From Candidatus Zambryskiibacteriota bacterium (GTDB taxonomy: Bacteria; Patescibacteriota; Minisyncoccia; Phycocordibacterales; DATDWN01), in NCBI GenBank assembly GCA_003173855.1, contig PPGI01000004.1, positions 176-64,175 of the forward strand: DNA of 64,000 bases, read 5' to 3'. The position numbers and the translations under genes were made by a program. The notes below the pieces were generated by a model. That model was not told the DNA's origin. It saw only the letters and a program-made list of their open reading frames with translations, and made no database searches. Shown here in pieces: positions 6,761-59,207 of the stretch (the first letter of the stretch is position 1; every line of letters starts with the position of its first letter).

Positions 6761-9115
6761 TTAACGTAAGAGCTCTTGAACAAAATAAGGGAAGCTCGCG
6801 GTTACTAAAATTCCTCTTAGTCGTAGGGGATTATCTTGGTAAACTCCTTTATAAGTTGTTCGATAAGTTAAGTAACCTGCATCTTTTGCTAAATCAATTA
6901 AGTCGGAATTTGAATACCCATAAGGCGAAGCAAAATGATTTACAGGTTTTCCTAAAATCGCTTCCAAAGTTTTCTTGCTATTTGTCATTTCAATATTTAC
7001 TTGGTCCAATTGCAGATTTTTGAAAAATGGATGGCTTACACTATGACTTTCAAAAATCATTCCGGCGTTTTCCATCTCTTCAATATTACTTGTCGAGAGA
7101 AAATGATTTTTATTTATTGAATTTGTAAAAATATAAAATGTGGCCTGCATGCCGTATTTTTTTAAGAGTGGAAATGCATATTTGTACTGATTTTGCCAAC
7201 CATCATCAAAAGTTAGAACCACTGGTTTTTGTCCGGGTGTGGTTGTGCCATTTTTTAAATCATTAGCTACATCATCAAGACTAATTGCTGTAAATCCATT
7301 ATTTTTTAAATATTTCAGCTGACGCTCAAATAATTGAGGAGAAATTTCATATGCCTTAAGTTCTGCTGAATCATTTTGATTAATAGGCCGCACACTATGA
7401 TAAATAAGTATTGGAATTTTCAATGCTCCGGGCAACGGTGTTTCTTCCGGTTCATTTTGAAAAGATTTTTCAATACTTTCATCATCTATAATCTGAATCG
7501 GGGCTTCTTTTTTTGTAACTTTTGTAACACTAAAAATTTTAATTTTGCTAAGCAACCCTGCAAATGCATCTCCTAGATTTTTAAATGCAAGATAAATGGT
7601 TGCAAACAAATTTGAACTAGAGGCCACTTTTTTGTTTACCATAATAGTTTGGGTTTGAACTAAAATTGAACTAGTTGCAGTTTTTAAATACAAAGCAGAG
7701 ACATAAGTTCCTGCGGAACTATAATTATGGTTTAAACTAAAATTTTTAGATTTACAATAATTATTCGATACAGAAATTGTAGTGGTGCTTTTATCGCCAT
7801 ATCCAAAATTGTAAATTGAAGCTAAACAAGATTTGTTGTTGTTCACTGAACCATTAAATGAAACAGAAAGAGGCGCTGTTCCGGCAACTGGGTTAGCAGT
7901 ATATGATCCAAAAGCTGCACCAGGAGGGCCTGTAGGCGTCGTATTTGGAGTCGCTACAAAAGTAGGGTTTAATACAATGGTAGTTGAACACTGCATCGGT
8001 CCAAGTGGCCCAGATAATTTAATAATATAAGTATGCGTGCTTGAGGCAACAAAAGTTTTACTTCCACTCAAATCTGCTCCTGAACCATCATCAAAAACCA
8101 CTCGATTTGCTCCTGTTGTGTACCATGAAAGTGTTACTTCTGTAGGTGAGTCAATTATATTTGTATCAGCTTCAAGATCACAAGATAAAACGGGTGTTGC
8201 GTATCGTTCAATATTCAGTCCATAAAGAAGTTCCGGAAGGGCACTGCCATTAATCCAGCCAGCATCTAATAAGTCGAGAGAATTATTTGACCAGATAAAA
8301 TTGCTGGTGCTTTTAAGATCATAAAAAGTTTTACCAAAATCAATTATTTTATCGCCCAGCAAAGTTGTTTTTACAGTATAAGAGTCATCTACCGGAGTAA
8401 TTAATCCATCAAGATCAAAATAATAGTTTGAACCTGCAGGAATTTCTATCGGAGGATCAAATAATGTCGTTGCAATTGATGATGTTGCATCAAATTCTGT
8501 CGTTCCGATTGATCCGTCAGTTTCTCCAATAATAGGAGATGAATAAAGTAGATCCGTAAATCCATATAGAGTAAGAGTGTCTATTGTAGCGGCGTCCAAC
8601 CTAAGATTAAAAGTAAGTTTGGCAATTTTTACATTTTGTGTTGCATGAATTTTAAATCGCATTAAATGTCCATCAATAACATCGTACGGCGCTAAAGTTT
8701 GATCTAATGCTAGTGTTGGTGCTGTAGCTCCAATAAAAAGGCTGCCTCTATCTAAAATTATTCCGCCCGAAGAAAGTGTGACAAAGTATTCTCCAACAGA
8801 AATTGGTGGGTAAATTGTTGTTGACCATCTCTCTTCGTTAACGTCTAAATTTTTTGCTACAAGTATTTCGCCTGTGCTCGATGCAGAGATTTCTAGATGC
8901 AGAGGAGCAATTAAATTACTGGCTGTTCCAGTCAAAGTTGGGTTCGATTTAAGAGAAGTTATTATTTTATAATCGAGAGCAGCTTTCGGAGGCGGTATTT
9001 TGGTCGCAAATAGAGAATTTACCTGAATTAGAAGAAAAAAAAGTCCAAAAAAGATATACACATACGATTTGCCTAGACTCTTAAGTTTCAATGGTATAAT
9101 CTGTTGAGACTTCAT
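6761..9115 (-). CDS. Large secreted protein with C-terminal polysaccharide deacetylase (NodB/CE4) domain
   Basis: Signal peptide after Met at 9115 (the ORF track extends to 9361, probably spuriously). Beta-rich Thr/Ser repeats. C-terminus has LTFDDGW...HSVSHP NodB motifs. Confidence 0.7.
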   Translation of the reverse strand: MKSQQIIPLKLKSLGKSYVYIFFGLFFLLIQVNSLFATKIPPPKAALDYKIITSLKSNPTLTGTASNLIAPLHLEISASSTGEILVAKNLDVNEERWSTTIYPPISVGEYFVTLSSGGIILDRGSLFIGATAPTLALDQTLAPYDVIDGHLMRFKIHATQNVKIAKLTFNLRLDAATIDTLTLYGFTDLLYSSPIIGETDGSIGTTEFDATSSIATTLFDPPIEIPAGSNYYFDLDGLITPVDDSYTVKTTLLGDKIIDFGKTFYDLKSTSNFIWSNNSLDLLDAGWINGSALPELLYGLNIERYATPVLSCDLEADTNIIDSPTEVTLSWYTTGANRVVFDDGSGADLSGSKTFVASSTHTYIIKLSGPLGPMQCSTTIVLNPTFVATPNTTPTGPPGAAFGSYTANPVAGTAPLSVSFNGSVNNNKSCLASIYNFGYGDKSTTTISVSNNYCKSKNFSLNHNYSSAGTYVSALYLKTATSSILVQTQTIMVNKKVASSSNLFATIYLAFKNLGDAFAGLLSKIKIFSVTKVTKKEAPIQIIDDESIEKSFQNEPEETPLPGALKIPILIYHSVRPINQNDSAELKAYEISPQLFERQLKYLKNNGFTAISLDDVANDLKNGTTTPGQKPVVLTFDDGWQNQYKYAFPLLKKYGMQATFYIFTNSINKNHFLSTSNIEEMENAGMIFESHSVSHPFFKNLQLDQVNIEMTNSKKTLEAILGKPVNHFASPYGYSNSDLIDLAKDAGYLTYRTTYKGVYQDNPLRLRGILVTASFPYFVQELLR

Positions 9116-9137
9116 TTTTATTAATAATATAACGTAT

Positions 9138-9671
9138 ATGGCAAAAACAAAATGGATTTGGGTGTTGGTAATTATAGTAGTTGTTATTGGTTTATGGTGG
9201 TTTGGTGTATTTAATATGTTCGGAAACCAAGCAGCTGTTTTTACCAGCCAAGATTCATCACTTTCTCCTACAGTACTTAGAGCTGAACTTGCAAATATAT
9301 ATGCAAAACTTACTGTGGCAACAAAACCACTGGGCACAGCTCCAACTCGTGAACAAATCAAAACTGCAGCAGATGCAATTAATGTTGCAAACTCGCTGAT
9401 TCTGGCATTTGCCTCAAAACTTCAGGCAGTGGCGATTAATGCAAAAACAACTGGAGCAAAAATACCAGACAGCAAAGCACTCGCTGATTTGTTAGTTCAA
9501 GTATCAAATTCCGGTTCACTTGCAGGAACTGCTGTTGGGAATGCATTAGGTTCAAGTTCTACACCTGCACAAGTCCGAATTTCAGCTTCACAAATAATTA
9601 GTGCTCAAGCAATGCTAAATGTTGCTCGTATTGATCTCCAAAAAATCGCAAACGGATTAGGAATTAAGTAA
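9138..9671 (+). CDS. Hypothetical membrane-anchored Ala-rich protein
   Basis: N-terminal TM helix, low-complexity A/S/T-rich body. Confidence 0.45.
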   Translation: MAKTKWIWVLVIIVVVIGLWWFGVFNMFGNQAAVFTSQDSSLSPTVLRAELANIYAKLTVATKPLGTAPTREQIKTAADAINVANSLILAFASKLQAVAINAKTTGAKIPDSKALADLLVQVSNSGSLAGTAVGNALGSSSTPAQVRISASQIISAQAMLNVARIDLQKIANGLGIK

Positions 9672-16234: not shown

Positions 16235-16309
16235 GGTGGCTATGGTGTAGCAGTAGCACAAGAGCTTGTGGAGCTTTTAGTTCCGGAGCATCCCCGGATA
16301 GCCACCCCA
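16235..16309 (+). tRNA. Candidate tRNA-His (anticodon GTG) with G-1, C73 and encoded CCA. D- and T-loops are non-canonical.
   Basis: G-1 then GTGGCTA/TAGCCAC acceptor, D-stem GTGT/GCAC, anticodon stem AGAGC/GCTTT with loop TTGTGGA, T-stem TCCGG/CCGGA with loop AGCATCC, discriminator C, CCA. Confidence 0.45.
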
Positions 16310-28682: not shown

Positions 28683-29108
28683 ATGATTCTGAAGGTTAAA
28701 AAACTTCATTCAGATGCCATTTTGCCATCATATGCTCACCCAGGAGATGCCGGACTGGATATGTATTCAAATGAGACTGTGACAATTGAACCCGGGCAGG
28801 CACATAAGGTGAAAACTGGGATTGCATTCGAGATTCCAGACGGCTACGTGGGACTGATTTGGGATAAAAGTGGAGTAGCATTTAATCATAAATTAAAAAC
28901 TTTAAGCGGAGTGATAGATTCAGGATACAGAGGTGAAGCTATGCTTAGTCTCATAAATTTAAGCAATACACCTTGCACGATAGAAAAAGGTCATAAAGTC
29001 TCGCAAATGTTAATTCAAAAAGTGGAAACAGTTGAAGTGAAAGAGGTTAATGAATTATCAGAAACGAAACGTGGTGAAGGTGGTTTTGGAAGTACTGGAA
29101 GAAAATGA
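28683..29108 (+). CDS. dut: dUTP diphosphatase (dUTPase)
   Basis: AGLDM, GVIDSGYRGE, and C-terminal RGEGGFGSTG motifs. Confidence 0.85.
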   Translation: MILKVKKLHSDAILPSYAHPGDAGLDMYSNETVTIEPGQAHKVKTGIAFEIPDGYVGLIWDKSGVAFNHKLKTLSGVIDSGYRGEAMLSLINLSNTPCTIEKGHKVSQMLIQKVETVEVKEVNELSETKRGEGGFGSTGRK

Positions 29109-30727
29109 TGAGAGAAAAATTAGAAAATTTAATAAATACTGCGTTAAAAGAACTCAAATTAAATGAGTTTGTAAATACTCAGTTTGGAAAAATTTATAGT
29201 ATTGATTATCCAAAAAGAATGGATTTCGGGGATTATAGTACAAATGTTGGAATAATTATTGGAGGGTCGGGTCACCCAGAGGATATTTTGAAATGGCTTG
29301 ATGAGCATAAACCAGAAGAAGTTGAAAAAATTGAAACAAAAGCTGGTTTTATTAATTTTTTTCTTAGTCCAAATTATTTTGAAAATGTGTTAAAGAATTT
29401 AGAAATTCCAAAAAATTCTGACGAGAATTTATTTATTGAACACACTCAACCCAATCCATTTAAAGCTTTTCATATCGGTCATTTGATGAACAATGCAATA
29501 GGTGAATCAATTGCTCGAATCACAAAATCTCTTGGTGCTGAAGTTCAAACGGCAACTTATCATGGTGACAAAGGTTTGCATGTTGCTAAAGCTGTATGGG
29601 CAATAAAAAAAGGAAAGAATTTAAATGAAGCATATGCATTTGGAAACAAAGCATATGAAGAGGATCAAATTGCAAAAGAAGAAATAATTGAAATAAATAA
29701 AAAAATTTACGACGAAAGTGATCCGGAAATAAATCAAATTTATGAGGATGGAAGAAAAGAGTCACTCGAGCATTTTGAATCAATATACAAAATGCTTGGC
29801 AGCGAATTTGATTTCCATTTCTTTGAAAGTGAGACAGGAGAAGTTGGTAAAGAACTAGTCGAAGAAAATTTAGGTAAGGTTTTTGAAAAAAGTGAAGGAG
29901 CTGTAGTTTTTAAGGGAGAAAACTTTGAGCCTAAAACTCATACACGTGTTTTTCTAAACTCTGATGGACTTCCGACATATGAAGCTAAAGAACTTGGAAT
30001 TGCCAAACTAAAAAGTGATTTTTTTGATTTCGACAAGTCTATAACAATTACTGCAAACGAACAGGATTCATTTTTCAAAGTCGTTGAAGTAGTTATTGGT
30101 GAAGTAATGCCAGAACTCAAAGGCAAAATTATGCATCTATCTCATGGGCTTTTGAAATTACCAACTGGAAAAATGTCATCAAGAACCGGATCGATAATCT
30201 CTGTGGAGTCTTTAATTGATCAAGTTAAAGAAAAGGTAAAAGCTAAAATTGATGATGATAAAATCTCTGAGATTATTGCCCTAGGAGCAATTAAGTATTC
30301 GATTTTAAGACAAGGTATCGGTAAGGATATTATTTTTGATTTTGATAAATCGATTTCATTTGAAGGTGATTCTGGCCCATATTTACAATATTCAACAGTT
30401 CGAGCAAGATCGCTTTTAAAAAAGGCAGAAGGTGTTATTAAATTATCAAATAAACTTCCAGAAAGCTGGCAAACGACAAATTTGGAAAGAATGCTTGAGA
30501 GATTTCCATCAATCGTAGCTCGAGCAGGTTCAGAATTTGCTCCTCATTATGTTGCAACATATTTAATTCAGTTAGCATCCGAATTTAACCATTTCTACAA
30601 TGAACACAAAATAATTGATGAAAAAGATCCTAAATCTCCTTATCGTTTAACTTTGGTTAAAGCATTTTCTGAAGTGATGGAAATGGGACTTGATTTACTT
30701 GCTATAAAAATACCAGACAGAATGTAA
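29105..30727 (+). CDS. argS: Arginyl-tRNA synthetase
   Basis: HIGH motif (FHIGHLMNN), DALR anticodon-binding domain, and the characteristic C-terminal ...DRM. Confidence 0.8.
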   Translation: MMREKLENLINTALKELKLNEFVNTQFGKIYSIDYPKRMDFGDYSTNVGIIIGGSGHPEDILKWLDEHKPEEVEKIETKAGFINFFLSPNYFENVLKNLEIPKNSDENLFIEHTQPNPFKAFHIGHLMNNAIGESIARITKSLGAEVQTATYHGDKGLHVAKAVWAIKKGKNLNEAYAFGNKAYEEDQIAKEEIIEINKKIYDESDPEINQIYEDGRKESLEHFESIYKMLGSEFDFHFFESETGEVGKELVEENLGKVFEKSEGAVVFKGENFEPKTHTRVFLNSDGLPTYEAKELGIAKLKSDFFDFDKSITITANEQDSFFKVVEVVIGEVMPELKGKIMHLSHGLLKLPTGKMSSRTGSIISVESLIDQVKEKVKAKIDDDKISEIIALGAIKYSILRQGIGKDIIFDFDKSISFEGDSGPYLQYSTVRARSLLKKAEGVIKLSNKLPESWQTTNLERMLERFPSIVARAGSEFAPHYVATYLIQLASEFNHFYNEHKIIDEKDPKSPYRLTLVKAFSEVMEMGLDLLAIKIPDRM

Positions 30728-30751: not shown

Positions 30752-33700
30752 ATGGAAAAAGGAGAAGATAAATCCTTAAAAAGTCCAATTGCTATAAAGG
30801 AGGAAGAAATACTAGCTTTCTGGAAAGAAAACAAAATTTTTGAGAAGTCGTTAGAGAAAAAATCGCCAAAAGGTGAGTTTGTATTTTACGATGGTCCAGC
30901 AACTGCAAATACAAAACCAGTTTTTCATACAATGGAACCTTTTGCTTTCAAGGATTTGATTCCACGCTACAGAACAATGCGAGGTTATCACGTTCGTAGA
31001 AAGGGTGGGTGGGACACTCATGGTTTGCCAGTTGAATTGCAGATTGAGAAAAAACTTGGATTTAAATCAAAAAAAGATATTGAAAATTTTGGTATCGCCG
31101 AATTTAACAGACTCTGTAAAGAAAGTGTCTGGGAATTTATCGGATTGTGGAAAGATTTCACTTCGAGAATGGCTTACTGGGCTGATCAAGACAATGCTTA
31201 CGTCACTTACGATAACGCATACATCGAATCTGTATGGAATGTAATTAAATATGTTAATGACAGAAATTTACTCTACAAGGATTACAAAGTTCTACCTTGG
31301 TGTCCAAGATGTGGAACCGCTCTTTCTTCTCATGAGCTTGCTCAAGGATATCAAGATGACAAAGATCTTTCAGTAACTGCAAAATTTAAAGTTGTTGGGG
31401 AAGAAAATACGTATTTACTTGCTTGGACAACGACTCCTTGGACTTTGCCTGGAAATGTTGCTCTAGCTGTAGGGGCCGATATTGATTACGTAAAAATAAA
31501 AAAAGGAGAGGAATTTTTAATTCTGGCTAAAGAAAGATTATCAATTGTTGAAGACGAATATAAGATAGTTGAAGAATTCAAAGGTGTGAAATTAGTCGGT
31601 TTAAAATACGAGCCACTTTACCACTATCTTGCAAATAAATTTGATAAAAAAGATCCGATTGCTTTCGAAAAATCTTATCAAATCTACGCTGCGCCTTTTG
31701 TAAACACTGAAGATGGAACAGGAATTGTTCATACGGCTGTAATGTATGGCCAGGATGATTTTGTCCTAGGGACATCTGTCGGTTTGCCGAAGCATCATTT
31801 GGTAAAAGATGATGGGCATTTTGGAGATGATATGGATTTTCTCTCAGGCAGGTTTGTTAAAGACGAAGAGGTGGCAGTAGATATTGTTAAAGATTTGGCC
31901 AAGAGAGGATTATTGTTTGATAAAAAATATTATACTCACTCGTACCCTCATTGTTGGAGATGCAAAACTCCGCTTATTTATTATGCGCGAGATTCTTGGT
32001 ACATCTCGATGTCAAAATTGCGTTCAGAACTTGTTCGTGAAAACGAAGAAATTCATTGGGAACCAGAACATATTAAAGAAGGCCGATTTGGTGAGTGGCT
32101 TCGTGAGATAAAGGATTGGGCGCTTTCTCGAGAGAGATATTGGGGAACACCTCTGCCTGTTTGGTTTGATGATGAAGGAAATTTTACAGTTCTGGGTTCA
32201 ATTGAAGATTTAAAAAAACACATAAAAACTTCGGGGAATAAATATTTTTTGATGCGACATGGTTGGGCACTTTGTAATGAAAAAAATGTAGAAAGTTTAA
32301 ATCCAGGAGAAGAAAATGATTCAATAACCGAAAAGGGAATTGCTGAAGCAAAAAAATCATTAGGAAAATTAAAAAATATAGATTTAATTGTTACATCCAA
32401 TTTTCGACGAGCAAAACAGACTGCAGAACTTGCTGCAGAATATTTTGGAATTCCAAAAAATGAAATTATCGTTGATGAGGGTTTGTGTGAAGATGAGGGC
32501 ACAATGGAGCATTTTGCTGGAGTTCGAAAAAGAATGGTTGAAGCTATGTCAGATCTAGAGAAAAAAAATTTAAATAAAAATATTCTAGTTATTTCTCATC
32601 AGTACCCGCTTAGAGTTTTGATTTCATCACATGAAGCATTTAACGAAAGAGAAGAAAAAGAAAAATTTGAAGTTACTCCATTTGATACCGGAGAAATTAG
32701 AGAAATTAATTTCTTGCCATTACCTCGAAATTCCAATTCCGAAGTAGATTTACACCGACCATACATCGATGAAGTCGAGTTAGTAGATAAAAATGGAAAG
32801 AAATTACAGCGTGTAAAAGAGGTGATGGATGTTTGGTTTGATTCAGGTTGTATGCCATTTGCCCAAGATCATTATCCGTGGAATAGAGATATACTTTATC
32901 CTGCAGATTTTATTTCGGAGGCTATCGATCAGACGCGAGGCTGGTTTTATACGTTGCATGCAATTGGAGTGTTAATGGAAAAAGGCAGAGCGTTTAAAAA
33001 TGTAATTTGTCTCGGACATATTCTTGATAAAGAGGGCAAAAAAATGTCGAAATCTGTCGGCAATGTTGTTGATCCTTGGACAGTTATAGATAAATTTGGT
33101 GTCGATGCATTGCGTCTCTGGATGTATTCAGTAAATTCTCCGGGAGATTCAAAAAACTTTGATGAGAAAAGTGTGGATGAATTAATAAAAAAAGTCTTCA
33201 ATCCATTAAACAATATCGTAGCATTTTACGAATTATATAAAGACGAGAACACAAAAACGACTAACAAAAGCAAAAATGTTTTAGATAAGTGGATACTATC
33301 GAGGTTCGCACAGTTAATTAAAAGTGGGACAGAAAACATGGATAATTTCAAAGTTTTTGAATCAGCACGCCCGATAAGAGATTTTGTAAATGATTTTTCA
33401 ACTTGGTATGTCAGACGATCACGAGATAGGTTTAAGTCTGATAATGTTGACGAAAAGAACGAAGCTCTTGGAACAACTTTGTTTGTACTAATGGAATTGG
33501 CAAAATACATGGCACCGTTCACACCATTTTTTGCTGAAGAAATTTATCAAAAACTTAAGACTTCAAATGATCCAGAAAGTGTTCATTTAGAGAATTGGCC
33601 AGAAGCACCAAAGTTAGACAATGGTTTGCTCGATCAAATGGAAAAAGCTAGAGTTGTTGTATCTCGAGCACTGGAACTTAGACAAAAAGCAGGTCACAAA

Positions 33701-34075
33701 ATTCGTCAGCCATTGCAAAGTCTTTCTATTCCAGAAAAATTTGATAGAGAAATGCTAGAAATTATTGCTGACGAAGTGAATGTAAAAGTAGTAAAAATTT
33801 CTGGGAATGAAGTTGTTCTTGATACGAATCTCACAGAAGAACTTAAAACCGAAGGAATAATGAGAGATGTTATTCGTTTTATTCAAGATTCAAGGAAAAC
33901 AAAAGGATTGCTCGCTACAAAAGTTGTCTCGGCAACGATTTTCCTCCCGAATTCGATAGCAGAAGTTGTATCTACATATAAAAGCGAAATTATAAAAATT
34001 ACTAATCTTTCTGAACTTCAAGTGGTAATAGATAAAAAAGAAGGTGAAGAATTGAATGTTGATTTTGTGTCATAA
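30752..34075 (+). CDS. ileS: Isoleucyl-tRNA synthetase (type 2) with an inserted histidine-phosphatase-like domain and a degenerate HIGH motif
   Basis: WDTHGLPVE, WCPRCGTALSSHE, WALSRERYWGTPLP, DLHRPYID, KMSKSVGN all IleRS-like. About 155-aa insert with RHG...TSNFRRAKQTA...VISHQ between WGTPLP and DLHRPYID. Confidence 0.8.
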   Translation: MEKGEDKSLKSPIAIKEEEILAFWKENKIFEKSLEKKSPKGEFVFYDGPATANTKPVFHTMEPFAFKDLIPRYRTMRGYHVRRKGGWDTHGLPVELQIEKKLGFKSKKDIENFGIAEFNRLCKESVWEFIGLWKDFTSRMAYWADQDNAYVTYDNAYIESVWNVIKYVNDRNLLYKDYKVLPWCPRCGTALSSHELAQGYQDDKDLSVTAKFKVVGEENTYLLAWTTTPWTLPGNVALAVGADIDYVKIKKGEEFLILAKERLSIVEDEYKIVEEFKGVKLVGLKYEPLYHYLANKFDKKDPIAFEKSYQIYAAPFVNTEDGTGIVHTAVMYGQDDFVLGTSVGLPKHHLVKDDGHFGDDMDFLSGRFVKDEEVAVDIVKDLAKRGLLFDKKYYTHSYPHCWRCKTPLIYYARDSWYISMSKLRSELVRENEEIHWEPEHIKEGRFGEWLREIKDWALSRERYWGTPLPVWFDDEGNFTVLGSIEDLKKHIKTSGNKYFLMRHGWALCNEKNVESLNPGEENDSITEKGIAEAKKSLGKLKNIDLIVTSNFRRAKQTAELAAEYFGIPKNEIIVDEGLCEDEGTMEHFAGVRKRMVEAMSDLEKKNLNKNILVISHQYPLRVLISSHEAFNEREEKEKFEVTPFDTGEIREINFLPLPRNSNSEVDLHRPYIDEVELVDKNGKKLQRVKEVMDVWFDSGCMPFAQDHYPWNRDILYPADFISEAIDQTRGWFYTLHAIGVLMEKGRAFKNVICLGHILDKEGKKMSKSVGNVVDPWTVIDKFGVDALRLWMYSVNSPGDSKNFDEKSVDELIKKVFNPLNNIVAFYELYKDENTKTTNKSKNVLDKWILSRFAQLIKSGTENMDNFKVFESARPIRDFVNDFSTWYVRRSRDRFKSDNVDEKNEALGTTLFVLMELAKYMAPFTPFFAEEIYQKLKTSNDPESVHLENWPEAPKLDNGLLDQMEKARVVVSRALELRQKAGHKIRQPLQSLSIPEKFDREMLEIIADEVNVKVVKISGNEVVLDTNLTEELKTEGIMRDVIRFIQDSRKTKGLLATKVVSATIFLPNSIAEVVSTYKSEIIKITNLSELQVVIDKKEGEELNVDFVS

Positions 34076-34659
34076 TGGCTTATAATATTTATACAACTGA
34101 TGCTATTGTCCTGAAGCACTTAACTTCAGGCGATGCTGATTTAACTTTGTTTGTCCTGACTCGTGATTTGGGATTAATAATTGCTTCAGCTAAATCAGCA
34201 AGATTAGATAAATCGAAATTAAAAGGAGCACTTCAAGAATATTCTTACGGAAGTATTTCTTTTGTTCGAGCGCAATCTATCTGGAAAGTAACAAACGCCA
34301 AAAGCGAAGGGAATTTTTATTTCCAAAATCAGAAATTTGGCCAGGAAATTTTAGCTAGGATTTCTAGAGTTTTAACTCAGACAATTGTGGGCGAGTCTCC
34401 TCACAAGGAAATCTTCGAAATAGTTTCAAGTGGATTTAGCATTCTAAAAGATATTGAAGAAAATGATATAGCTAATTTTGAAATCTTGATTGTTCTGCGA
34501 ATTTTGTTTGAACTCGGCTATGTGGCAAAAGAAAAAAATAATGAGATGTATTTTAAAGACCCAAATGATTGGGGAAAGGAAATTCTCGACAAAACGTCTA
34601 AACATAGGACTATGCTAGTCAACTTGATTAACACTGCTCTAAAAGAAAGCCAATTATAA
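34075..34659 (+). CDS. recO: DNA repair protein RecO-like (short form, no zinc domain)
   Basis: N-terminal OB-fold pattern AIVLK...GDADLTLFVLTRDLGLIIASAKSARLDKSKLKGALQ resembles RecO (KGARSKRSTLKGALQ). Confidence 0.55.
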   Translation: MAYNIYTTDAIVLKHLTSGDADLTLFVLTRDLGLIIASAKSARLDKSKLKGALQEYSYGSISFVRAQSIWKVTNAKSEGNFYFQNQKFGQEILARISRVLTQTIVGESPHKEIFEIVSSGFSILKDIEENDIANFEILIVLRILFELGYVAKEKNNEMYFKDPNDWGKEILDKTSKHRTMLVNLINTALKESQL

Positions 34660-42712: not shown

Positions 42713-43129
42713 ATTAGACTTACTTATCCACATTTCATACATTACAATTTTTTCTAAAAAAGACTGATTTTGTTAGAAATGATCAGGATTGATCAAACAC
42801 TTTTTAAGTCAAATTTTGAATTTTAGCCATCATAAGGGTTTTGTATTTCTATACTAGAAACCTATATAAACCTTTATAAACATTCATAAAAAAAGCAGGT
42901 TTTATTAACCTTTAGTTCAATTATAATTTGGCTTGATCTTTCTCGGATATTAATTTAATTTTCTAAAAATTTTTTAAAAATTAGCATTTCTTAGAAATTT
43001 CAAATTTTAATAAAATCAACGAAATTGGAAAAATCATTTTCTAAGGCCAAAACCTCGTTTTATGGCTAATAATAAGTGATAAAATATTATTATTGCTACG
43101 CTCGCTTTGTAGCAAAGTACCTTATTCTG

Positions 43130-46100
43130 ATGAAACTCAGGAAGTATAAATCTTTGAAAGGAAGGTATGCTTTGTGCCTAATTACATTTTTTTTGGGGTC
43201 TTTTTTGCTCTCTCCAAGTAGTGTCTTCGCTGCCCCAATGATTTCTAGCGAATTCAAAGAGGGTCTTTATAATAAAGGTTTTATTGATTTGCGAGAAATA
43301 AATAAAGTCATAAATCAATTATCAAGCAAAATAAATTATAATTTAACATTTTCAAGTTCTTTCCCAACAAGCACAAATTTTTCAAATGTAGAATCAGCAA
43401 ATATAAATATTTCAGATTTTTTTTCTTCTGCAATTTCTGAGGCAAAATATTTAACAGATGGCCAGGTTGCATTAATCAAAAATTATTTGGATTCAGTAGC
43501 CGGCGGTCTGCAATATGTTTCTAGTTCATTTAAAATTGCATACCAACGATCAAACAATCGAAGATCAACTGCCAGTGCTTTAAATTCTGGTAAGTTTAGA
43601 AATCGAGCGGCGGTTCAAAAAACGACTACAAAAGTTGCAGTTGTTAAAAACGAAAATCAATCACCTCCTGCAAAAAATGTTGCTGCGATTTCTTTCCCAC
43701 AAGTAATTAAAAAAATTCTAAATCCTTCTCGAGTGTCAGTGCCAAGTGCAACTGAACAAATTTTAGCATCTGCAAACTTTGTTACAAAAGTTGATTTAGA
43801 ATCTAGTTTGCAAAAAATCTATAATGAAATTTTACAGAAATTTTCAAACACAGGATCAGTGAGCTCCACAGATCTGGCAGCAATTTACAGACAAATTGCT
43901 CTTAGTCAAAAAATTGATAATTTATCAAATGTTGTTATAACAAATCCAACTATTTCTGGTGGAACAATTACTAACGTCACCAATCTGACAGTTGCAGCAA
44001 CTGGTTCAACAACAATTACAAACCTGGTAGTTACAAATACTTCAACATCAACATTTGCAGGTGGAATAGCGATAACAGGTGGATGTCTTTCTGTAAACGG
44101 CACATGTATTAGTTCTGGCTCTGGTTCCGGAACCCCTGGAGGATCAGATGGGTATGTTCAATTTAACAGTGGAGGATCATCTTTTGGAGGCTCGTCAAAT
44201 TTTGTTTGGGATAATACAAATATTAGGCTTGGAATAGGCACATCATCCCCATATTCAACTCTCTCTGTCGCAGGTCAGATAGTAGGAGCATATTTTACAG
44301 CAACTACAACAACTGCAAGCACATTTCCTTATGCATCGACTACCGGTGTCTCTATTACCGGGGGATTAACCCTTCCAACAACTTTTAATGGCCCTCTTCA
44401 GGCGAATGCTGGAATAGTTTCTGCAACAACATCAATTGGAATTCTTTATGGAGGTACCGGAGCTACAACTTTCGGAGCCAACTCGATTATTACTTCAAAC
44501 TCAGCTGGTACAGCATTGATTGCAACGACTTCAAACAACTTTACTATCGGATCTCTCATTGCCACGAGTTCAACTCTGAACAATATTTTTCTTAACAATT
44601 GGAATGGTTTTGGAACAAGTACGCCAAAATGGTTAGCACAATTTTCATCTTCAACTGCACCTCAGCTGGCTTTATCTGATGCAGGAAGTAACATCTGGAC
44701 ATTCAGAGTGGATTCAGGTTCACTTACAATTGGAACATCTTCACCAACTACATTTGCTACCAGCACTACACCTCAAATTTCTATTGCCAATACTGGATTT
44801 GGTACAACGACACTTCGTGGACTAAATATTAATGCTCAAGCTACGAGCACTTCTAACGTTGGTGAAAATATCTCAACTGGTTGTTTTGCTATGTCTGGAA
44901 CTTGTATGGGCATCTTCCCATTCACGACAAATGCTGGATACAACTCAACATCTACAATACTTGGACTTAACGGACTATTCTCAACTGCCTCATCAACATT
45001 CAGTTCATCACTTTATTTATCAAGTCTCACTCAAGGATTTAGCTACCTGGGATCTAATGGATTAATACAAACTATTGCAACAAGTACTCTAGCAAATTAC
45101 ATCCTTCCATTTACCTCATACGGAGCTTCAACCTCAACAATACTTGGATTTACAAATGGTCTGTTTTCTACAGCATCATCAACATTCTCATCTAACCTAT
45201 ATCTCTCGAACCTCACTCAAGGATTTAGCTATCTAGGTTCAAATGGACTATTTCAAACAATCTCAACATCAACATTAGCCAACTACATCCTTCCATTCAC
45301 TTCCTACGGAGCATCAACTTCAACAGTTCTAGGTCTAACAGGAGGTTACTTCTCAACAGGATCATCAACGCAGAGTGGAAACTTCTTCCTTCCAGCACTA
45401 ACTCAAGGTTTCACCTACACTGGTTCAAACGGATTGGTTTCTATAGTTTCGACTTCAACTCTAACCAACTTCATTTTGACTTTCAAATCATACGGAGTCT
45501 CGACCTCATCCGTTACCGGCTTTTTGGGCGGTTTCTTCTCAACTGCCTCCTCAACACAATCTTCTAACTTTTATCTTCCAGCTCTAACACAAGGTTTCCT
45601 TTACAACGGATCAAGTGGTCTAACACAAACTATTGCTTCTTCTTCTGTAAACCTATCTTGGTTTAATAACGATGCGGCATTTGCCAATAACCCATTTACT
45701 GCAATATCATCACAAGCAGGATATTCCGCTACTACATCTTCATTGGTTATTGGAACAACTACGGCTCCAGTAAACATTGCTTCTGTTACAATCGCGTCAT
45801 CAACCGCCTCTCAACTTGCACTTAGTGGTGGAGCAGGTCAATCAATATGGACATTTAGAAATGCTGGAAGTAACTTCTACCTAGCAACTACTACAACTGC
45901 CGGCACAGCAACCACATCAACAAACGCTATGACAATATTGGGAAGCAGCGGTTTTGTTGGCTTTGGAACAACAACTCCAACTCTTGGCCCTCTGACAATG
46001 AACTCTGGAGCGTATGTAACAACTGGAGGTGTTTGGACGAATGCTTCAGATCGAAATTTGAAAGAGAATTTTCTTGAAGTAAATATTGAAGAAATACTTA

Positions 46101-46819
46101 ATAAAATTGTTCAATTGCCTATCACGCAATGGAACTATAAAGCTGAACCAGCAAGCACCACTCACATAGGTCCAGTGGCTCAAGATTTTTATGCTGCATT
46201 TCATACTGGAGGTTCAAATACTTCTATTTCTACTATAGATCCTGCGGGCGTTGCTCTAGTCGGAATAAAAGCTTTGTATAAGATGATTACAGACATCAGT
46301 AAATATTTTGTTAATGATGTTTTGAAAATTGGCCAAGTTTCTACTAAAAAACTTTGTGTTTCTGACGAAAACGGAGAAACTTGCATTACACGAGCAGAAC
46401 TTACAGCACTTCTTCTTAAGCTTAAAGATTCTGGCAGTAATTCAAACACACAAACACCACCACCAAACAGTCCACCTCCTCCTCAAAATTCCAACGCAAC
46501 TAGCACTGAAACTTCTGCGGACACAACTGCACCAGTTATAACTATCATTAGCGATAACCCTGCAAATGTATTTTTTGGAACAACATATTCTGATATGGGA
46601 GCAACGATAACTGATACTGGCGCTGATGGGACTGTAAATAATAATCTCGGGTTACATTTCAGCGTAGATGGAGTAAATGTAGATCAAGTTATTATAGATA
46701 CCTCGATAAGTAGCACCTCAGTTCAGGCAACCACAACCCATACAGTGGTTTATTCAGCAGTCGATAGTTCAGGCAACTGGGGTTATGCTACGCGTACAGT
46801 TAACGTTTTACCTCAATAA
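43130..46819 (+). CDS. Giant tail-fibre-like surface protein with internal tandem repeats, S74 intramolecular-chaperone domain and C-terminal DUF5011 Ig-like domain
   Basis: Signal peptide. Four 60-aa tandem repeats (nt 44944-45660). SDRNLKENF...QWNYK...HIGPVAQDF matches the endosialidase chaperone domain. C-terminus APVITIISDNPANVFFGTTYSDMGATITD...TRTVNV matches DUF5011. Confidence 0.6.
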   Translation: MKLRKYKSLKGRYALCLITFFLGSFLLSPSSVFAAPMISSEFKEGLYNKGFIDLREINKVINQLSSKINYNLTFSSSFPTSTNFSNVESANINISDFFSSAISEAKYLTDGQVALIKNYLDSVAGGLQYVSSSFKIAYQRSNNRRSTASALNSGKFRNRAAVQKTTTKVAVVKNENQSPPAKNVAAISFPQVIKKILNPSRVSVPSATEQILASANFVTKVDLESSLQKIYNEILQKFSNTGSVSSTDLAAIYRQIALSQKIDNLSNVVITNPTISGGTITNVTNLTVAATGSTTITNLVVTNTSTSTFAGGIAITGGCLSVNGTCISSGSGSGTPGGSDGYVQFNSGGSSFGGSSNFVWDNTNIRLGIGTSSPYSTLSVAGQIVGAYFTATTTTASTFPYASTTGVSITGGLTLPTTFNGPLQANAGIVSATTSIGILYGGTGATTFGANSIITSNSAGTALIATTSNNFTIGSLIATSSTLNNIFLNNWNGFGTSTPKWLAQFSSSTAPQLALSDAGSNIWTFRVDSGSLTIGTSSPTTFATSTTPQISIANTGFGTTTLRGLNINAQATSTSNVGENISTGCFAMSGTCMGIFPFTTNAGYNSTSTILGLNGLFSTASSTFSSSLYLSSLTQGFSYLGSNGLIQTIATSTLANYILPFTSYGASTSTILGFTNGLFSTASSTFSSNLYLSNLTQGFSYLGSNGLFQTISTSTLANYILPFTSYGASTSTVLGLTGGYFSTGSSTQSGNFFLPALTQGFTYTGSNGLVSIVSTSTLTNFILTFKSYGVSTSSVTGFLGGFFSTASSTQSSNFYLPALTQGFLYNGSSGLTQTIASSSVNLSWFNNDAAFANNPFTAISSQAGYSATTSSLVIGTTTAPVNIASVTIASSTASQLALSGGAGQSIWTFRNAGSNFYLATTTTAGTATTSTNAMTILGSSGFVGFGTTTPTLGPLTMNSGAYVTTGGVWTNASDRNLKENFLEVNIEEILNKIVQLPITQWNYKAEPASTTHIGPVAQDFYAAFHTGGSNTSISTIDPAGVALVGIKALYKMITDISKYFVNDVLKIGQVSTKKLCVSDENGETCITRAELTALLLKLKDSGSNSNTQTPPPNSPPPPQNSNATSTETSADTTAPVITIISDNPANVFFGTTYSDMGATITDTGADGTVNNNLGLHFSVDGVNVDQVIIDTSISSTSVQATTTHTVVYSAVDSSGNWGYATRTVNVLPQ

Positions 46820-58600: not shown

Positions 58601-59207
58601 CAAGTCGTTCCCAACAGTCGCAGCTGACACATTGCCAGGTACAGGAGTTGCTGACGGTAAACTTATGCGATTCAAGATTACAGCTGACTCACATGGTCAA
58701 GTTGGTATCTATCAGCTAAGCTTCAAGGTCGCTACTTCATCCTTTGCAACAGGAGGTGGTGTATCTAACGTCAAGGTAATGGTTTACTCTGATGCAGCTT
58801 ACTCACAGCCTGTGAGTGGTACATACGGAGCAGCTACAGGACAATTTGGTGCAACAGCATCTGTGTTCTCAACAAACACAACCTTCAACGTAACAGCTAC
58901 AACAAACCCACTCGAGATCCCTGCTGGAACAACTTATTACGTCCAGCTTGAATCAACAGTACAGAGCACTCAGACAGGTACATCTGTGACAACTACACTT
59001 AATGGTGATGCAGCATACATTTCTGCAGCTCACTTAGGTGCAAGCTTTGTCTCAACTACAACTGGTGCAGTTGCTGATACAAACAACAACTTTATCTGGT
59101 CAGGTAACGCTACTTCGACGGCAGTATTCAACTCAAATGACTGGGCTAACGGCTTCAGCATCTTGGGTCTTCCATCAGGTGGTTTGAGCCAGACTCGATC
59201 AAACTAA
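55692..59207 (+). CDS. Giant secreted S-layer-like protein with N-terminal coiled coil and peptidoglycan-binding (PGB1) domain
   Basis: Signal peptide (AFMPVLASA). PGB1-like block GSKGTDVMNLQKVLN...FGPLTKAAVIKFQIKFGISPAAGYVGPKTRAKL. About 1000 aa of T/S/G/A/V-rich beta repeats. Monocistronic with strong terminator. Confidence 0.55.
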   Translation: MNLTKSKTAKIAAGVVGFAMVVTAFMPVLASADTASDLQAQINSLLATIQSLQAQLAATTGGSSSVGSFSFSTNLTVGSKGTDVMNLQKVLNMSADTQVAASGPGSKGMETSTFGPLTKAAVIKFQIKFGISPAAGYVGPKTRAKLSTMGGVSSTPTPVTPGTPTGGALSVSSAVQPSNSLAPKNASRVPFTRFTLTAGASDVTVNSVTVQRSGFANDAVFSGIVLLDQNGMQVGISKTLNSNHQANLGDNFIVRAGTSQTYTVAGNMASDESSYVGQIASLDVVAVNSSATVSGALPITGAQQTVNNSLTVGTVTIGTSSFDPNNGASNSVGTTGLRFTGFRITAGSAEDLTLKSIRWNQSGSAGSNDLGNIMTVVNGVSYPTTVSADGKYYSTVFPSGIVIAKGNSVDVYVQGDLVGSGAAGRTVEFDVYKNTDLYLSGNTYGYGITAATGSGVVLTTANHATVLNTSSNPWLEGSQMSVTAGQVTLIGKASEIAAQNIATNVPNQPLGGFATNFTGEPVSVQGLWLVLSTTTTAGPTANSPFSAITNITLVDQNGAVVAGPVDATVGDGTSSHGGITPNTSGYAVVHFTDTVTFPVGRRVYTVKGKIPSAWANGATVTLYTKPSTDFTTPTGQTTGNSVDLSSQATAFTMNQMTVKGAALQVNIAAQPASQNVVGGVQGFVLANYQFDATQSGEDVRLSSMPVVITAGGAATASQLTGCQLWNGTTPLNTGSGVVNTFSSGTAKTYSFDNALIIPKGTAVTLSLACNVSSAVTSGTFQVSADSTTSDWSVTGLTSGNTVTPTFGTGSGGTMTVGTGSFAVTVDSSSPATTTVAGGASGITLGVFKFRASNEDINLTKVAIQLATGTSANIGTMYVYQGSTLLGTAIFPQGNLAIATSTLNTPFKLTRDTDVLITVKADMAAIGTGQSGVEGQPVIANVSVAEGSGLSSGLTLDVVGISTGAAGVRTFKSFPTVAADTLPGTGVADGKLMRFKITADSHGQVGIYQLSFKVATSSFATGGGVSNVKVMVYSDAAYSQPVSGTYGAATGQFGATASVFSTNTTFNVTATTNPLEIPAGTTYYVQLESTVQSTQTGTSVTTTLNGDAAYISAAHLGASFVSTTTGAVADTNNNFIWSGNATSTAVFNSNDWANGFSILGLPSGGLSQTRSN

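What the first reader, a model, noticed from the sequence alone, without database searches (positions are those of the whole stretch)
32235..32750. Histidine-phosphatase (PGAM-like) domain inserted inside the catalytic core of IleRS
Between the conserved WALSRERYWGTPLPVW block and the DLHRPYIDEV block, canonical type-2 IleRS has about 45 residues. Here there are about 200. The extra part contains the full histidine-phosphatase signature: FLMRHGWALCNEKN (RHG catalytic His), ITEKGIAEAKKSLGKL, IVTSNFRRAKQTAEL (conserved Arg plus QTA) and VISHQYPL (second His). There are no intein splicing motifs. It looks like a folded enzymatic domain grafted into an aminoacyl-tRNA synthetase. I do not know of this architecture being described. 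Possible roles are hydrolysis of a phosphorylated intermediate or nucleotide (Ap4A, 2',3'-cyclic phosphate tRNA), or a regulatory phosphatase.
Basis: partly seen in the sequence, partly recalled or inferred. Interest (0 to 1): 0.75.

Follow-up and report, generated by a model that had tools for sequence, protein, structure and literature searches.

The report
Histidine phosphatase nested inside isoleucyl-tRNA synthetase
The essential enzyme that charges tRNA with isoleucine carries a complete, apparently active phosphatase domain in one of its surface loops; this turns out to be a conserved, undescribed trait of a whole class of ultra-small (CPR) bacteria, and it recurs in valyl-tRNA synthetase of a second class.

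Summary
Window 30752-34075 (+) is one uninterrupted 1107-aa type-2 IleRS. Residues 497-654 (nt 32240-32713) form a branch-1 histidine phosphatase (HP) domain (Pfam E=1e-18; AF2 pLDDT 91; Foldseek probability 1.0 to PspA, CobC and PhoE). It sits in the CP3 connective-peptide subdomain, where T. thermophilus IleRS has about 9 residues. It is not an artefact: the 119 closest IleRS cluster representatives besides the query itself and at least 328 GTDB species genomes (Paceibacteria/Parcubacteria) share it. The catalytic residues R502, H503, N509, R553 and H616 are 120/120 conserved and E580 119/120, although the insert diverges faster (43% identity) than the IleRS body (71%). Related lineages encode the same phosphatase as a standalone gene directly upstream of an insert-free ileS (7 of 9 examined), in the same argS-ileS-recO synteny, so this is a fusion/fission pair. 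Other relatives have 2-4 tandem copies, a second insertion site, or an added HD or GNAT module. ValRS of Peregrinibacteria/Gracilibacteria carries the domain at the equivalent CP3 site. No paper in the searchable library describes it. The substrate is unknown. I favour an active phosphatase functionally tied to class Ia synthetases, possibly acting on nucleotide or tRNA-end phosphates. A hitch-hiking housekeeping phosphatase is the main rival.

The parts
30752..34075 (+). ileS: type-2 isoleucyl-tRNA synthetase, 1107 aa, with a nested phosphatase domain
   Evidence: Single ORF. TIGR00392 scores 858 bits, above the 621 cutoff. The AF2 model has pLDDT 84, and its body superimposes on 8C8W (TMt 0.81) and 1ILE (TMt 0.88).
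30920..30931 (+). Class I signature motif position, here VFHT (non-canonical; only one His)
   Evidence: Family alignment: ALHH/GIHH in about 100 of 120, and V[FL]HT in the window's group. The G/AXHH motif is described for IleRS2 in PMC10485003.
31427..31738 (+). CP1 editing domain motifs TTTPWTLPGN (31427-31456) and DGTGIVHTA (31712-31738), intact
   Evidence: At least 90% conserved in the family. Matches IleRS editing-domain structures 1WK8 and 1UE0.
32114..32164 (+). DWALSRERYWGTPLPVW: CP2-CP3 linker plus Rossmann strand, immediately before CP3
   Evidence: Invariant in the family. The homologous yeast segment ARDWNVSRNRYWG lines the pocket that binds the tRNA CCA end and reveromycin (PMC7955072).
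32165..32239 (+). N-terminal half of native CP3 (FDDEGNFTVLGSIEDLKKHIKTSGN); the Zn-binding cysteines of Tth IleRS are absent
   Evidence: Aligns to Tth 460-478. CP3 definition from PMC7191050.
32240..32713 (+). Histidine phosphatase (His_Phos_1, branch 1) domain, residues 497-654; short cap-less variant
   Evidence: Pfam E=1.2e-18. AF2 insert model has pLDDT 91 and pTM 0.89. Foldseek probability 1.0 and TM about 0.72 to 4IJ5, 6E4B and 1H2E. About 30 residues are missing relative to the family consensus between E580 and E586.
32255..32263 (+). RHG motif: R502, nucleophile H503, G504
   Evidence: R and H are 120/120, G is 118/120.
32276..32278 (+). N509, phosphate-pocket Asn
   Evidence: 120/120.
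32408..32410 (+). R553, second phosphate-pocket Arg (SNFRRAKQTAE)
   Evidence: 120/120.
32489..32491 (+). E580, predicted general acid / proton donor
   Evidence: 119/120, with one Asp.
32597..32599 (+). H616, second catalytic His (VISHQ)
   Evidence: 120/120.
32714..32770 (+). C-terminal half of native CP3 (LPLPRNSNSEVDLHRPYID)
   Evidence: Corresponds to Tth PLPEPFDPHRPYVD. F654, P658 and N660 are at least 95% conserved.
32828..32848 (+). DVWFDSG: start of the second half of the Rossmann fold (amino-acid pocket Trp)
   Evidence: Invariant in the family. Aligned to Tth DVWYDSG.
33041..33055 (+). KMSKS loop, canonical
   Evidence: GKKMSKS in 116/120.
29105..30727 (+). argS (ArgRS), upstream neighbour. 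In related genomes the standalone phosphatase gene lies between argS and ileS.
   Evidence: Pfam Arg_tRNA_synt_N, tRNA-synt_1d and DALR_1. Synteny in L081, L084-L089 and L096-L098.
34075..34659 (+). recO, downstream neighbour (conserved synteny)
   Evidence: Pfam RecO_N. Same order in L084, L085, L087 and L097.

Best explanation
SHOWN: The segment is a genuine, structurally autonomous branch-1 histidine phosphatase domain nested in the CP3 connective-peptide loop of an otherwise complete type-2 IleRS. The KMSKS loop and the editing motifs are intact, and the class I signature is non-canonical. The domain is fixed across Paceibacteria. It is evolutionarily interchangeable with a standalone gene of about 190 aa that sits directly upstream of an insert-free ileS. 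INFERRED: It works as a phosphomonoesterase. H503 attacks the phosphate held by R502, R553, N509 and H616, E580 protonates the leaving group, and the phospho-His intermediate is then hydrolysed. Two patterns suggest its activity is functionally coupled to class Ia aminoacylation rather than being a random passenger. The same phosphatase clade is either fused into or encoded next to IleRS. It has also been placed repeatedly at the equivalent CP3 site of ValRS, at a second IleRS site, and in 2-4 tandem copies. MOST SPECULATIVE: The substrate is a generic nucleotide-type phosphate connected with charging, for example a 2'/3'-phosphate or pyrophosphate blocking a tRNA 3' end, or a nucleoside mono- or bisphosphate. 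Only one synthetase per lineage hosts the domain, so it probably acts in trans on a shared substrate pool rather than only on the tRNA bound in cis. Sub-probabilities: active phosphatase, about 0.85; functionally coupled to the synthetase or translation, about 0.55; tRNA 3'-end or nucleotide substrate specifically, about 0.25.
For: Identity and fold. Not an artefact, and lineage-wide: apart from the query itself, all 119 best IleRS hits carry PF00300; at least 328 GTDB species genomes; 80 of 80 fetched loci are a single IleN-HP-IleC ORF. Selection on catalysis: R502, H503, N509, R553 and H616 are 120/120 and E580 is 119/120, while the insert shows 43% pairwise identity against 71% for the IleRS body. 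Catalytic residues are kept even in cap-less variants such as this one. Fusion/fission: standalone relatives score E about 1e-43 to 1e-50 against the insert profile. They lie 1-8 bp (or overlapping) upstream of an insert-free ileS in 7 of 9 cases, within the same argS-ileS-recO order as the window. Insert-bearing loci lack a standalone copy. Recurrence: tandem copies and a second site after KMSKS, where one copy usually keeps RHG. ValRS: 72 of 120 carry HP, 74 of 88 copies are at the CP3-equivalent site, and 84 of 88 keep RHG. Site context: the motif just before CP3 lines the CCA-end pocket. Nucleotide hint: close relatives add a C-terminal HDDC2/YfbR-like HD phosphohydrolase. Precedent for tRNA-specific 3'-end pyrophosphorylation and enzymatic reversal: PMC11559606. 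Standalone forms are basic (pI 9-10) while tethered forms are acidic. This is compatible with the free form needing electrostatic attraction to an acidic synthetase or to RNA.
Against: No substrate is identified. No curated subfamily threshold is reached. The nearest solved structures are all small-molecule phosphatases (phosphoserine, alpha-ribazole-P, FMN-type, 3-PG). No histidine phosphatase is known to me to act on an RNA 3' end. The inserted domains are acidic (median pI 5.7), which is unfavourable for RNA binding. In human IARS1 a protein docked on CP3 does not clash with bound tRNA, so the exposed face of CP3 probably points away from the tRNA path. The host is IleRS in one class and ValRS in another, and Nomurabacteria ValRS lacks the domain. 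This argues against an amino-acid- or tRNA-specific role in cis. Two insert-free ValRS loci have no HP neighbour. CPR synthetases also host unrelated inserts (IS200-like, DUF559, HU, GNAT), so permissiveness alone could explain part of the pattern. I had no model coordinates, so I could not measure the distance or orientation between the two active sites.
Confidence: 0.55

Rival explanations
1. Hitch-hiking housekeeping phosphatase. The neighbouring upstream gene, a small-molecule phosphatase with an unrelated cellular job, was captured into a structurally permissive surface loop (CP3) of the adjacent essential gene. It is retained only because its own activity is needed, with no mechanistic link to aminoacylation.
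For: The closest structures are small-molecule phosphatases. Most family members keep the small 'cap' typical of small-molecule enzymes. CP3 is variable and tolerates bulky partners. Ancestral adjacency provides an easy route to fusion. The host differs by lineage (IleRS or ValRS), with one host per lineage. Other unrelated domains are also inserted in CPR synthetases. Copy number (1-4) and a second site suggest that geometry is not critical.
Against: Independent placement in two paralogous class Ia enzymes at the same CP3 site is hard to explain this way. Adjacency to ileS persists although the HP proteins have diverged to about 30% identity. Cap-less variants keep all catalytic residues, which would be odd for a substrate-specific metabolic enzyme. 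My sampling was seeded from the IleRS insert, so ascertainment bias cuts both ways.
Confidence: 0.3
2. Regulatory or protein-directed phosphatase. Like SixA, PGAM5 or Sts-1, the domain would dephosphorylate a phosphoprotein (possibly the synthetase itself after inhibitory phosphorylation), or sense a phosphorylated metabolite to tune charging.
For: The window's copy is cap-less and SixA-sized, with a predicted open active site. Weak SixA model hits occur. From my own knowledge, not tested here: HipA-type kinases are reported to inhibit class I synthetases by phosphorylation.
Against: SixA scores are far below cutoff (25-39 bits against 74.5) and always weaker than the CobC/dPGM-like hits. Most family members do have a cap. 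No kinase partner was seen in the conserved neighbourhood. The lineage-wide housekeeping distribution argues against a role linked to a toxin-antitoxin system.
Confidence: 0.08
3. Artefact or non-functional relic: an assembly chimera, a frameshifted gene pair, an intein, or a decaying pseudo-enzyme.
For: None beyond the prior. The insert has lower GC (0.31) than flanking ileS (0.37-0.40), and one tandem copy has lost RHG in some multi-copy relatives.
Against: One continuous ORF. The same architecture occurs in 119 further independent protein clusters, 80 of 80 fetched GTDB loci and at least 328 species. Catalytic residues are invariant. The fold is confident. There is no Hint/intein domain and no spare residues to hold one.
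Confidence: 0.01

Closest known systems
Type-2 (eukaryote-like) bacterial IleRS, e.g. T. thermophilus IleRS (1ILE) and P. megaterium IleRS2 (8C8U-W)
   Same: Same overall fold and domain order: Rossmann fold, CP core, CP1 editing, CP2, CP3, anticodon-binding domain and the DUF5915 C-terminal domain. The KMSKS loop is shared. The non-canonical G/AXHH-type signature is common in this family.
   Different: About 165 extra residues form a phosphatase domain inside CP3. CP3 lacks the Tth zinc cysteines. The window's signature motif is VFHT, with a single His.
Small branch-1 histidine phosphatases: PspA-type phosphoserine phosphatase (4IJ5), CobC alpha-ribazole phosphatase (6E4B), PhoE/YhfR (1H2E), RosC (9EMU)
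   Same: Same fold and the same catalytic set (RHG His, two Arg, Asn, Glu, second His), at about 160-200 aa.
   Different: Only 18-22% identity, and below every curated family cutoff. Nested in another enzyme rather than free-standing. The window's copy lacks the substrate 'cap' segment.
NCBIfam NF040702 'isoleucine--tRNA ligase, N-acetyltransferase domain-containing'
   Same: A curated precedent for an IleRS carrying an additional enzymatic domain.
   Different: A different domain (GNAT), and judging by profile offsets a different position, N-terminal to the editing region. The window protein scores 307 bits against a cutoff of 1999, so it is not a member.
Bifunctional RNase H / CobC-type acid phosphatase (PRK07238, M. 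tuberculosis Rv2228c type)
   Same: A CobC-like histidine phosphatase covalently joined to a nucleic-acid enzyme. It is among the best NCBIfam hits for the insert and its standalone relatives.
   Different: An end-to-end fusion, not a nested insertion. The partner is RNase H, not a synthetase. Scores are far below cutoff (44-88 bits against 326).
Known idiosyncratic insertions of class Ia synthetases (CP1 editing domain, LeuRS leucine-specific domain, zinc-binding CP3 of Tth IleRS)
   Same: Modules nested in loops of the Rossmann fold without disrupting it. CP3 is one of these variable positions.
   Different: Those modules are synthetase-specific folds serving charging or editing. Here the module is a member of an unrelated, widespread enzyme superfamily with its own active site.

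Membership tests
Isoleucyl-tRNA synthetase, type 2 (TIGR00392 ileS; IleRS2) | Full-length match to the ileS equivalog model above its curated cutoff | tested here: met
   858.5 bits against a cutoff of 621.4, in two stretches around the insert.
Isoleucyl-tRNA synthetase, type 2 (TIGR00392 ileS; IleRS2) | Class I signatures: HIGH-type motif and KMSKS | tested here: inconclusive
   KMSKS is canonical (aa 764-768). The HIGH position reads VFHT: the third-position His of the published G/AXHH variant is kept, but the fourth His is Thr. Activity of such a motif has not been tested.
Isoleucyl-tRNA synthetase, type 2 (TIGR00392 ileS; IleRS2) | CP1 editing domain with the Thr-rich and GTG(I/V)VH motifs; type-2 C-terminal domain (DUF5915) | tested here: met
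   TTTPWTLPGN and DGTGIVHTA are present and conserved. PF19302 E=6e-10. Structural match to IleRS2 8C8W, TMt 0.81.
Isoleucyl-tRNA synthetase, type 2 (TIGR00392 ileS; IleRS2) | Charges tRNA-Ile with isoleucine; sole IleRS of the genome | not testable with these tools
   Only 64 kb of the genome is available. Housekeeping synteny (argS-ileS-recO) suggests the primary copy.
Histidine phosphatase superfamily, branch 1 (Pfam PF00300) | Match to the PF00300 profile above the gathering threshold | tested here: met
   67.9 bits against 21.7, E=1.2e-18.
Histidine phosphatase superfamily, branch 1 (Pfam PF00300) | N-terminal RHG motif with the nucleophilic His (PMC3866925) | tested here: met
   R502-H503-G504; R and H are 120/120 in the family.
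Histidine phosphatase superfamily, branch 1 (Pfam PF00300) | Phosphate pocket (second Arg, second His, Asn) and acidic proton donor | tested here: met
   R553, H616 and N509 are 120/120; E580 is 119/120. The role assignment follows from alignment to the family and from general knowledge of the superfamily.
Histidine phosphatase superfamily, branch 1 (Pfam PF00300) | Alpha/beta fold of the superfamily | tested here: met
   AF2 pLDDT 91. Foldseek probability 1.00 and TMq 0.72-0.73 to 4IJ5, 6E4B and 1H2E.
Histidine phosphatase superfamily, branch 1 (Pfam PF00300) | Phosphatase or mutase activity via a phospho-His intermediate | not testable with these tools
   Needs an enzyme assay.
Cofactor-dependent phosphoglycerate mutase (dPGM; NF038349, TIGR01258) | Score above the curated cutoff, and the substrate-binding cap residues | tested here: not met
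   Best dPGM_arch score is 54.8 (window) to 102 bits (relatives) against a cutoff of 225. The cap segment is deleted in the window's copy.
Alpha-ribazole phosphatase CobC (TIGR03162) / phosphoserine phosphatase PspA (NF045917) / SixA (TIGR00249) | Score above the curated equivalog cutoff | tested here: not met
   CobC reaches at most 99 bits against 162.9, PspA at most 89 against 350, and SixA at most 39 against 74.5.
Intein | Hint domain with N-terminal Cys/Ser and C-terminal His-Asn plus a nucleophile | tested here: not met
   No Hint/intein Pfam hit. The whole extra segment is accounted for by the phosphatase fold.

The most novel reading that the evidence does not exclude
The phosphatase would be a new kind of synthetase-associated quality-control or repair activity. 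It would strip a blocking 2'/3'-phosphate or pyrophosphate from tRNA CCA ends, for example damage inflicted by toxSAS-type pyrophosphokinases or by ribonucleases of hosts, competitors or phages. Some lineages would pair it with an HD phosphohydrolase. In these episymbiotic bacteria, class Ia synthetases (IleRS or ValRS) would then act as platforms for tRNA-end healing as well as charging.
Probability: 0.15. Interest if true: 0.9.

Novelty: new variant of a known kind. Interest (0 to 1): 0.68.

Why it matters
Aminoacyl-tRNA synthetases are among the most conserved and best-studied enzymes. Accessory domains on them have repeatedly revealed new biology, such as editing, signalling and complex assembly. 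Here a second, apparently active enzyme from an unrelated superfamily is nested in the Rossmann-fold insertion CP3. It has been maintained under purifying selection across hundreds of Patescibacteria species. It is mirrored by an operon-encoded standalone form, and it arose again at the same site in ValRS. That pattern suggests an unrecognised phosphate-removing step linked to translation in organisms with minimal genomes. At the least, it is a striking natural example of how far a class I catalytic domain tolerates domain insertion. There is also a practical consequence: NCBI often names these proteins only 'class I tRNA ligase family protein', so the essential IleRS is under-annotated in many CPR genomes.

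Tried and rejected
1. Searching the word-indexed protein database with the insert alone found one standalone hit and missed the whole IleRS family, including the self protein. The full-length query was needed.
2. The first GTDB scan, with the diverse insert alignment, failed for lack of a conserved 7-10-mer. A narrower alignment worked, but its pattern K[KT]S[GN]NKYF samples only part of the family, so 328 species is a lower bound.
3. My first regex check of the loci missed 30 of 80 because of motif variation. HMM-based checking gave 80 of 80.
4. The AFDB fold library was unavailable.
5. The viral-contig scan gave only three weak standalone hits at 27% identity, so there is no evidence for a phage link.
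6. Curated NCBIfam subfamilies (dPGM, CobC, PspA, SixA, GpmB, RNase H/acid phosphatase) were tested as identities for the domain and rejected on score.
7. The intein and assembly-artefact explanations were rejected.
8. The 'standalone gene next to the insert-free synthetase' pattern was tested for ValRS and not found in two loci.
9. Short-cap HP variants do not track the VxHT signature clade strictly, so those two oddities are not a single linked trait.
10. The distance and orientation between the HP and IleRS active sites could not be measured, because model coordinates are not exposed.
Full report
**1. What is in the sequence**

Window 30752-34075 (+) is a single 1107-codon reading frame with no stop or frameshift. 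Pfam splits the class I synthetase domain (PF00133) around a His_Phos_1 domain (PF00300). The match has E=1.4e-16 in the context of the whole protein. For the insert alone it has E=1.2e-18 and 67.9 bits against a gathering cutoff of 21.7. Anticodon_1 and the type-2 C-terminal domain DUF5915 follow. The NCBIfam ileS equivalog TIGR00392 scores 858 bits against a cutoff of 621.

Against solved structures, T. thermophilus IleRS (1ILE) aligns to query residues 16-489 and 665-981, with only its residues 479-487 in between. P. megaterium IleRS2 behaves the same way. The folded phosphatase proper is residues 497-654 (nt 32240-32713). It is flanked by the two halves of the native CP3 element: GSIEDLKKHIKTSGN, equivalent to Tth GSFQELKARATK, and LPLPRNSNSEVDLHRP, equivalent to Tth PLPEPFDPHRP.

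**2. The host site**

The C. albicans and yeast IleRS structure papers define CP3 as the subdomain between CP2 and the second half of the Rossmann fold (Ca 473-534, Sc 459-526). They note that its topology differs among the Tt, Sa and Ca enzymes, and that only Tt has a zinc motif there (PMC7191050; PMC7955072). The insert therefore splits the Rossmann fold in sequence, between the WGTPLPVW strand and the DVWFDSG helix. Structurally, though, it lies in a variable peripheral module rather than the catalytic core.

Two facts frame what that position could mean:
- The motif just upstream (yeast ARDWNVSRNRYWG, here DWALSRERYWG, residues 455-465) lines the pocket that binds the tRNA CCA end and reveromycin.
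- In human IARS1, CP3 together with the catalytic domain is the docking surface for LARS1, and modelling plus pull-downs show no clash with bound tRNA-Ile (PMC13439101).

**3. The fold**

An AlphaFold2 model of the full protein, built with 51 family sequences, has mean pLDDT 84 and pTM 0.75. The insert blocks are mostly 80-93. The body superimposes on IleRS2 structures (8C8W TMt 0.81, 1ILE TMt 0.88). The insert modelled alone has pLDDT 91 and pTM 0.89. It matches small branch-1 histidine phosphatases with probability 1.00 and TM about 0.72, at 18-22% identity: PspA-type phosphoserine phosphatase 4IJ5/4IJ6, RosC, Entamoeba PSP, CobC 6E4B and PhoE 1H2E. No Hint/intein domain is detected, and the phosphatase fold accounts for all the extra residues.

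**4. It is not an artefact, and it is not rare**

- A full-length search returned the protein itself plus 119 cluster representatives at 56-68% identity, from NCBI, JGI, ENA and Logan assemblies. Every one carries PF00300 together with the IleRS domains. Where named, they are Parcubacteria, Minisyncoccia, Zambryskibacteria, Paceibacterota or Patescibacteria.
These included Nomurabacteria, Zambryskibacteria, Campbellbacteria, Wolfebacteria and Paceibacteria.
- In all 80 fetched loci the domain lies in a single ORF between the IleRS N- and C-terminal parts.
- An exhaustive profile search of 1.84 billion representatives found 454 proteins at E<=1e-30.

**5. Selection**

Across the 120 family members, R502, H503, N509, R553 and H616 are each 120/120, E580 is 119/120 (one Asp), and G504 is 118/120. 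Mean pairwise identity is 43% in the insert, against 71% in the IleRS body and 68% in the editing domain. The RHG histidine is the residue that becomes phosphorylated in this superfamily (PMC3866925). A fast-evolving domain with an invariant catalytic set indicates purifying selection on catalysis, or at least on phosphate binding.

The window's copy is one of 18 short variants among the 120, at 175 aa against a median of 205. It lacks about 30 residues between E580 and E586, which form the small 'cap' in the majority, yet it keeps every catalytic residue.

**6. A standalone counterpart next to ileS**

The profile search also returned proteins of about 190 aa that match the insert profile at E about 1e-43 to 1e-50. 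I examined the genomic context of nine of them:
- Seven lie directly upstream of an insert-free type-2 ileS of 931-988 aa, with a 1-8 bp gap or an overlap: P0001 (two tandem copies), P0202, P0210, P0229, P0219, P0241 and P0236.
- One is probably the same arrangement (P0197: argS, then HP, then a gene cut by the contig end).
- One is not adjacent (P0194).

The surrounding order is argS, HP, ileS, recO and a DUF11/CLIPPER protein. The window has dut, argS, ileS with HP inside, recO and a DUF11 protein. Insert-bearing loci have no standalone copy within 4 kb, and this window has no other HP ORF. A rough neighbour-joining tree interleaves the standalone genes with some IleRS inserts. This is a classic fusion/fission ('Rosetta stone') pattern. 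It gives a simple origin for the insert, by capture of the adjacent gene, and it is evidence for a functional tie. Caveat: adjacency in very compact genomes can persist without a functional link, and my sample was seeded from the IleRS insert.

**7. Variations on the theme**

- Some IleRS relatives have two tandem copies in CP3 (P0136, P0188).
- Others have one copy in CP3 and a second about 70 residues after KMSKS (P0169, P0184, P0189, P0223). In those, one copy has often lost RHG while the other keeps it.
- Close relatives of the window protein (P0096, P0111) replace the last ~60 residues or so with an HD phosphohydrolase module that weakly resembles HDDC2/YfbR-type nucleotidases.
- P0207 combines the phosphatase with a GNAT domain and an IS200-like domain.
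- Most strikingly, ValRS carries the same phosphatase clade. Of the 120 best hits to one such ValRS, 72 have it (where named, Peregrinibacteria or Gracilibacteria). Of 88 domain copies, 74 lie between WxxSRQxxWG and DxWFxS, the CP3-equivalent site, and 84 of 88 keep RHG. There are up to four tandem copies (P0122).
- A Nomurabacteria ValRS lacks the domain, so each lineage seems to use one host synthetase.
- Two insert-free ValRS loci showed no neighbouring HP gene, so the adjacency half of the pattern is so far specific to ileS.

**8. What it most likely does**

Shown: an intact phosphatase fold and catalytic set, stable nesting in an otherwise complete IleRS, lineage-wide conservation, and interchangeability with an operon partner.

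Inferred: it is an active phosphomonoesterase using H503 as the nucleophile. Its activity is linked to class Ia synthetases rather than being a random passenger, because of the fusion/fission pattern and the repeated independent placements.

The substrate is not identified. No curated subfamily cutoff is reached by the window's insert, by typical long inserts or by the standalone partners: dPGM_arch reaches at most 102 bits against 225, CobC at most 99 against 163, PspA at most 89 against 350, and SixA at most 39 against 74.5. It is not a dPGM, both on score and because the cap is missing here.

Evidence leaning towards a nucleotide or tRNA-end substrate:
- The insertion lies next to the CCA-pocket linker.
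- Some close relatives add an HD nucleotidase-like module.
- The cap is dispensable.
- The free-standing forms are basic (pI 9-10), whereas the tethered forms are acidic (median 5.7).
- tRNA-specific 3'-CCA pyrophosphorylation exists and is reversed by dedicated hydrolases (PMC11559606).

Evidence leaning against:
- All the nearest structures are small-molecule enzymes.
- The tethered domain is acidic.
- The outer face of CP3 is off the tRNA path in the human complex.
- There is one host per lineage (IleRS or ValRS), which suggests a generic, trans-acting or independent activity.
- CPR synthetases also carry unrelated inserts.

I put about 0.85 on 'active phosphatase', about 0.55 on 'functionally coupled to the synthetase or translation', about 0.25 on 'tRNA-end or nucleotide substrate', and about 0.30 on the pure hitch-hiker alternative.

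**9. Comparison with what is known, and novelty**

Both parts are members of known families, IleRS2 and PF00300, and the membership tests are met except for the unusual signature motif. The combination is not described in any paper I could find:
- Searches pairing IleRS or tRNA synthetase with histidine phosphatase, PGAM or His_Phos_1, and with CPR, Patescibacteria or Parcubacteria, found nothing relevant.
- The two recent IleRS evolution papers do not mention it.

The closest precedents are the curated 'IleRS with GNAT domain' family, the RNase H/CobC-type bifunctional enzyme, and the native idiosyncratic insertions of class Ia synthetases. The sequences themselves are public, and their Pfam architecture is precomputed, so the novelty lies in recognition and interpretation. 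I rate it a new variant of a known kind: a multidomain synthetase in which an unrelated active enzyme is nested in CP3.

**10. Side observation**

The class I signature of this family is the non-canonical G/AXHH type (ALHH or GIHH) that PMC10485003 links to mupirocin hyper-resistance. The window and 18 relatives go further, to V[FL]HT, which leaves a single histidine. Whether such an enzyme activates isoleucine normally has not been tested.

Noticed in passing
window 30920-30931 (IleRS aa 57-60): The class I 'HIGH' signature reads VFHT, with only one His. Most of the family has ALHH or GIHH, the non-canonical G/AXHH motif linked to mupirocin hyper-resistance in IleRS2 (PMC10485003). 19 of 120 members have Thr or Ser at the fourth position.
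   Followed up: partly
relatives P0249, P0122, P0272-P0385 (ValRS; no window coordinates): ValRS of Peregrinibacteria/Gracilibacteria carries 1-4 copies of the same phosphatase clade, mostly at the CP3-equivalent site (74 of 88 copies). Two insert-free ValRS loci (L093, L095) have no HP gene nearby.
   Followed up: partly
relatives P0169, P0184, P0189, P0223 (IleRS): There is a second insertion site for the phosphatase about 70 residues after KMSKS. In these two-site proteins the CP3 copy has often lost RHG while the other keeps it.
   Followed up: partly
relatives P0096 (aa ~1105-1314), P0111: Close relatives of the window IleRS replace the last ~60 residues or so with an HD phosphohydrolase module that weakly resembles HDDC2/YfbR-type 5'-nucleotidases.
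   Followed up: partly
relatives P0207 (IleRS); P0289, P0370, P0339 (ValRS): Other foreign domains are embedded in CPR class Ia synthetases: an IS200-like Y1 transposase domain and GNAT (P0207), DUF559/Vsr-like endonuclease PF04480 (P0289, P0370), and HU PF00216 (P0339). These enzymes seem to be hot spots for in-frame domain insertion.
   Followed up: no
standalone relatives P0197, P0202, P0229, P0241 etc. versus the inserts: Standalone ileS-adjacent phosphatases are mostly basic (pI 9-10), whereas the inserted domains are acidic (median pI 5.7).
   Followed up: no
window 32200-32650: GC content dips to about 0.31 over the insert, against 0.37-0.40 in the flanking ileS sequence. This is consistent with weaker constraint or a separate origin of the insert.
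   Followed up: no
window 16236-16309 (+): ARAGORN calls a tRNA-His (GTG) here, but the Rfam tRNA model does not report it at the gathering threshold (6 tRNAs against 5).
   Followed up: no
window 43076-46819 (+): A 1247-aa ORF has a Peptidase_S74 (endosialidase chaperone) domain, typical of phage tail fibres or spikes. Nearby large ORFs have PG_binding_1 (55692-59207) and polysaccharide deacetylase (6761-9361) domains.
   Followed up: no
database names of P0009, P0014, P0027, P0057, P0092 etc.: NCBI annotation calls many of these essential IleRS proteins only 'class I tRNA ligase family protein', presumably because the insert disrupts naming rules. IleRS may look missing in CPR genome annotations.
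   Followed up: no
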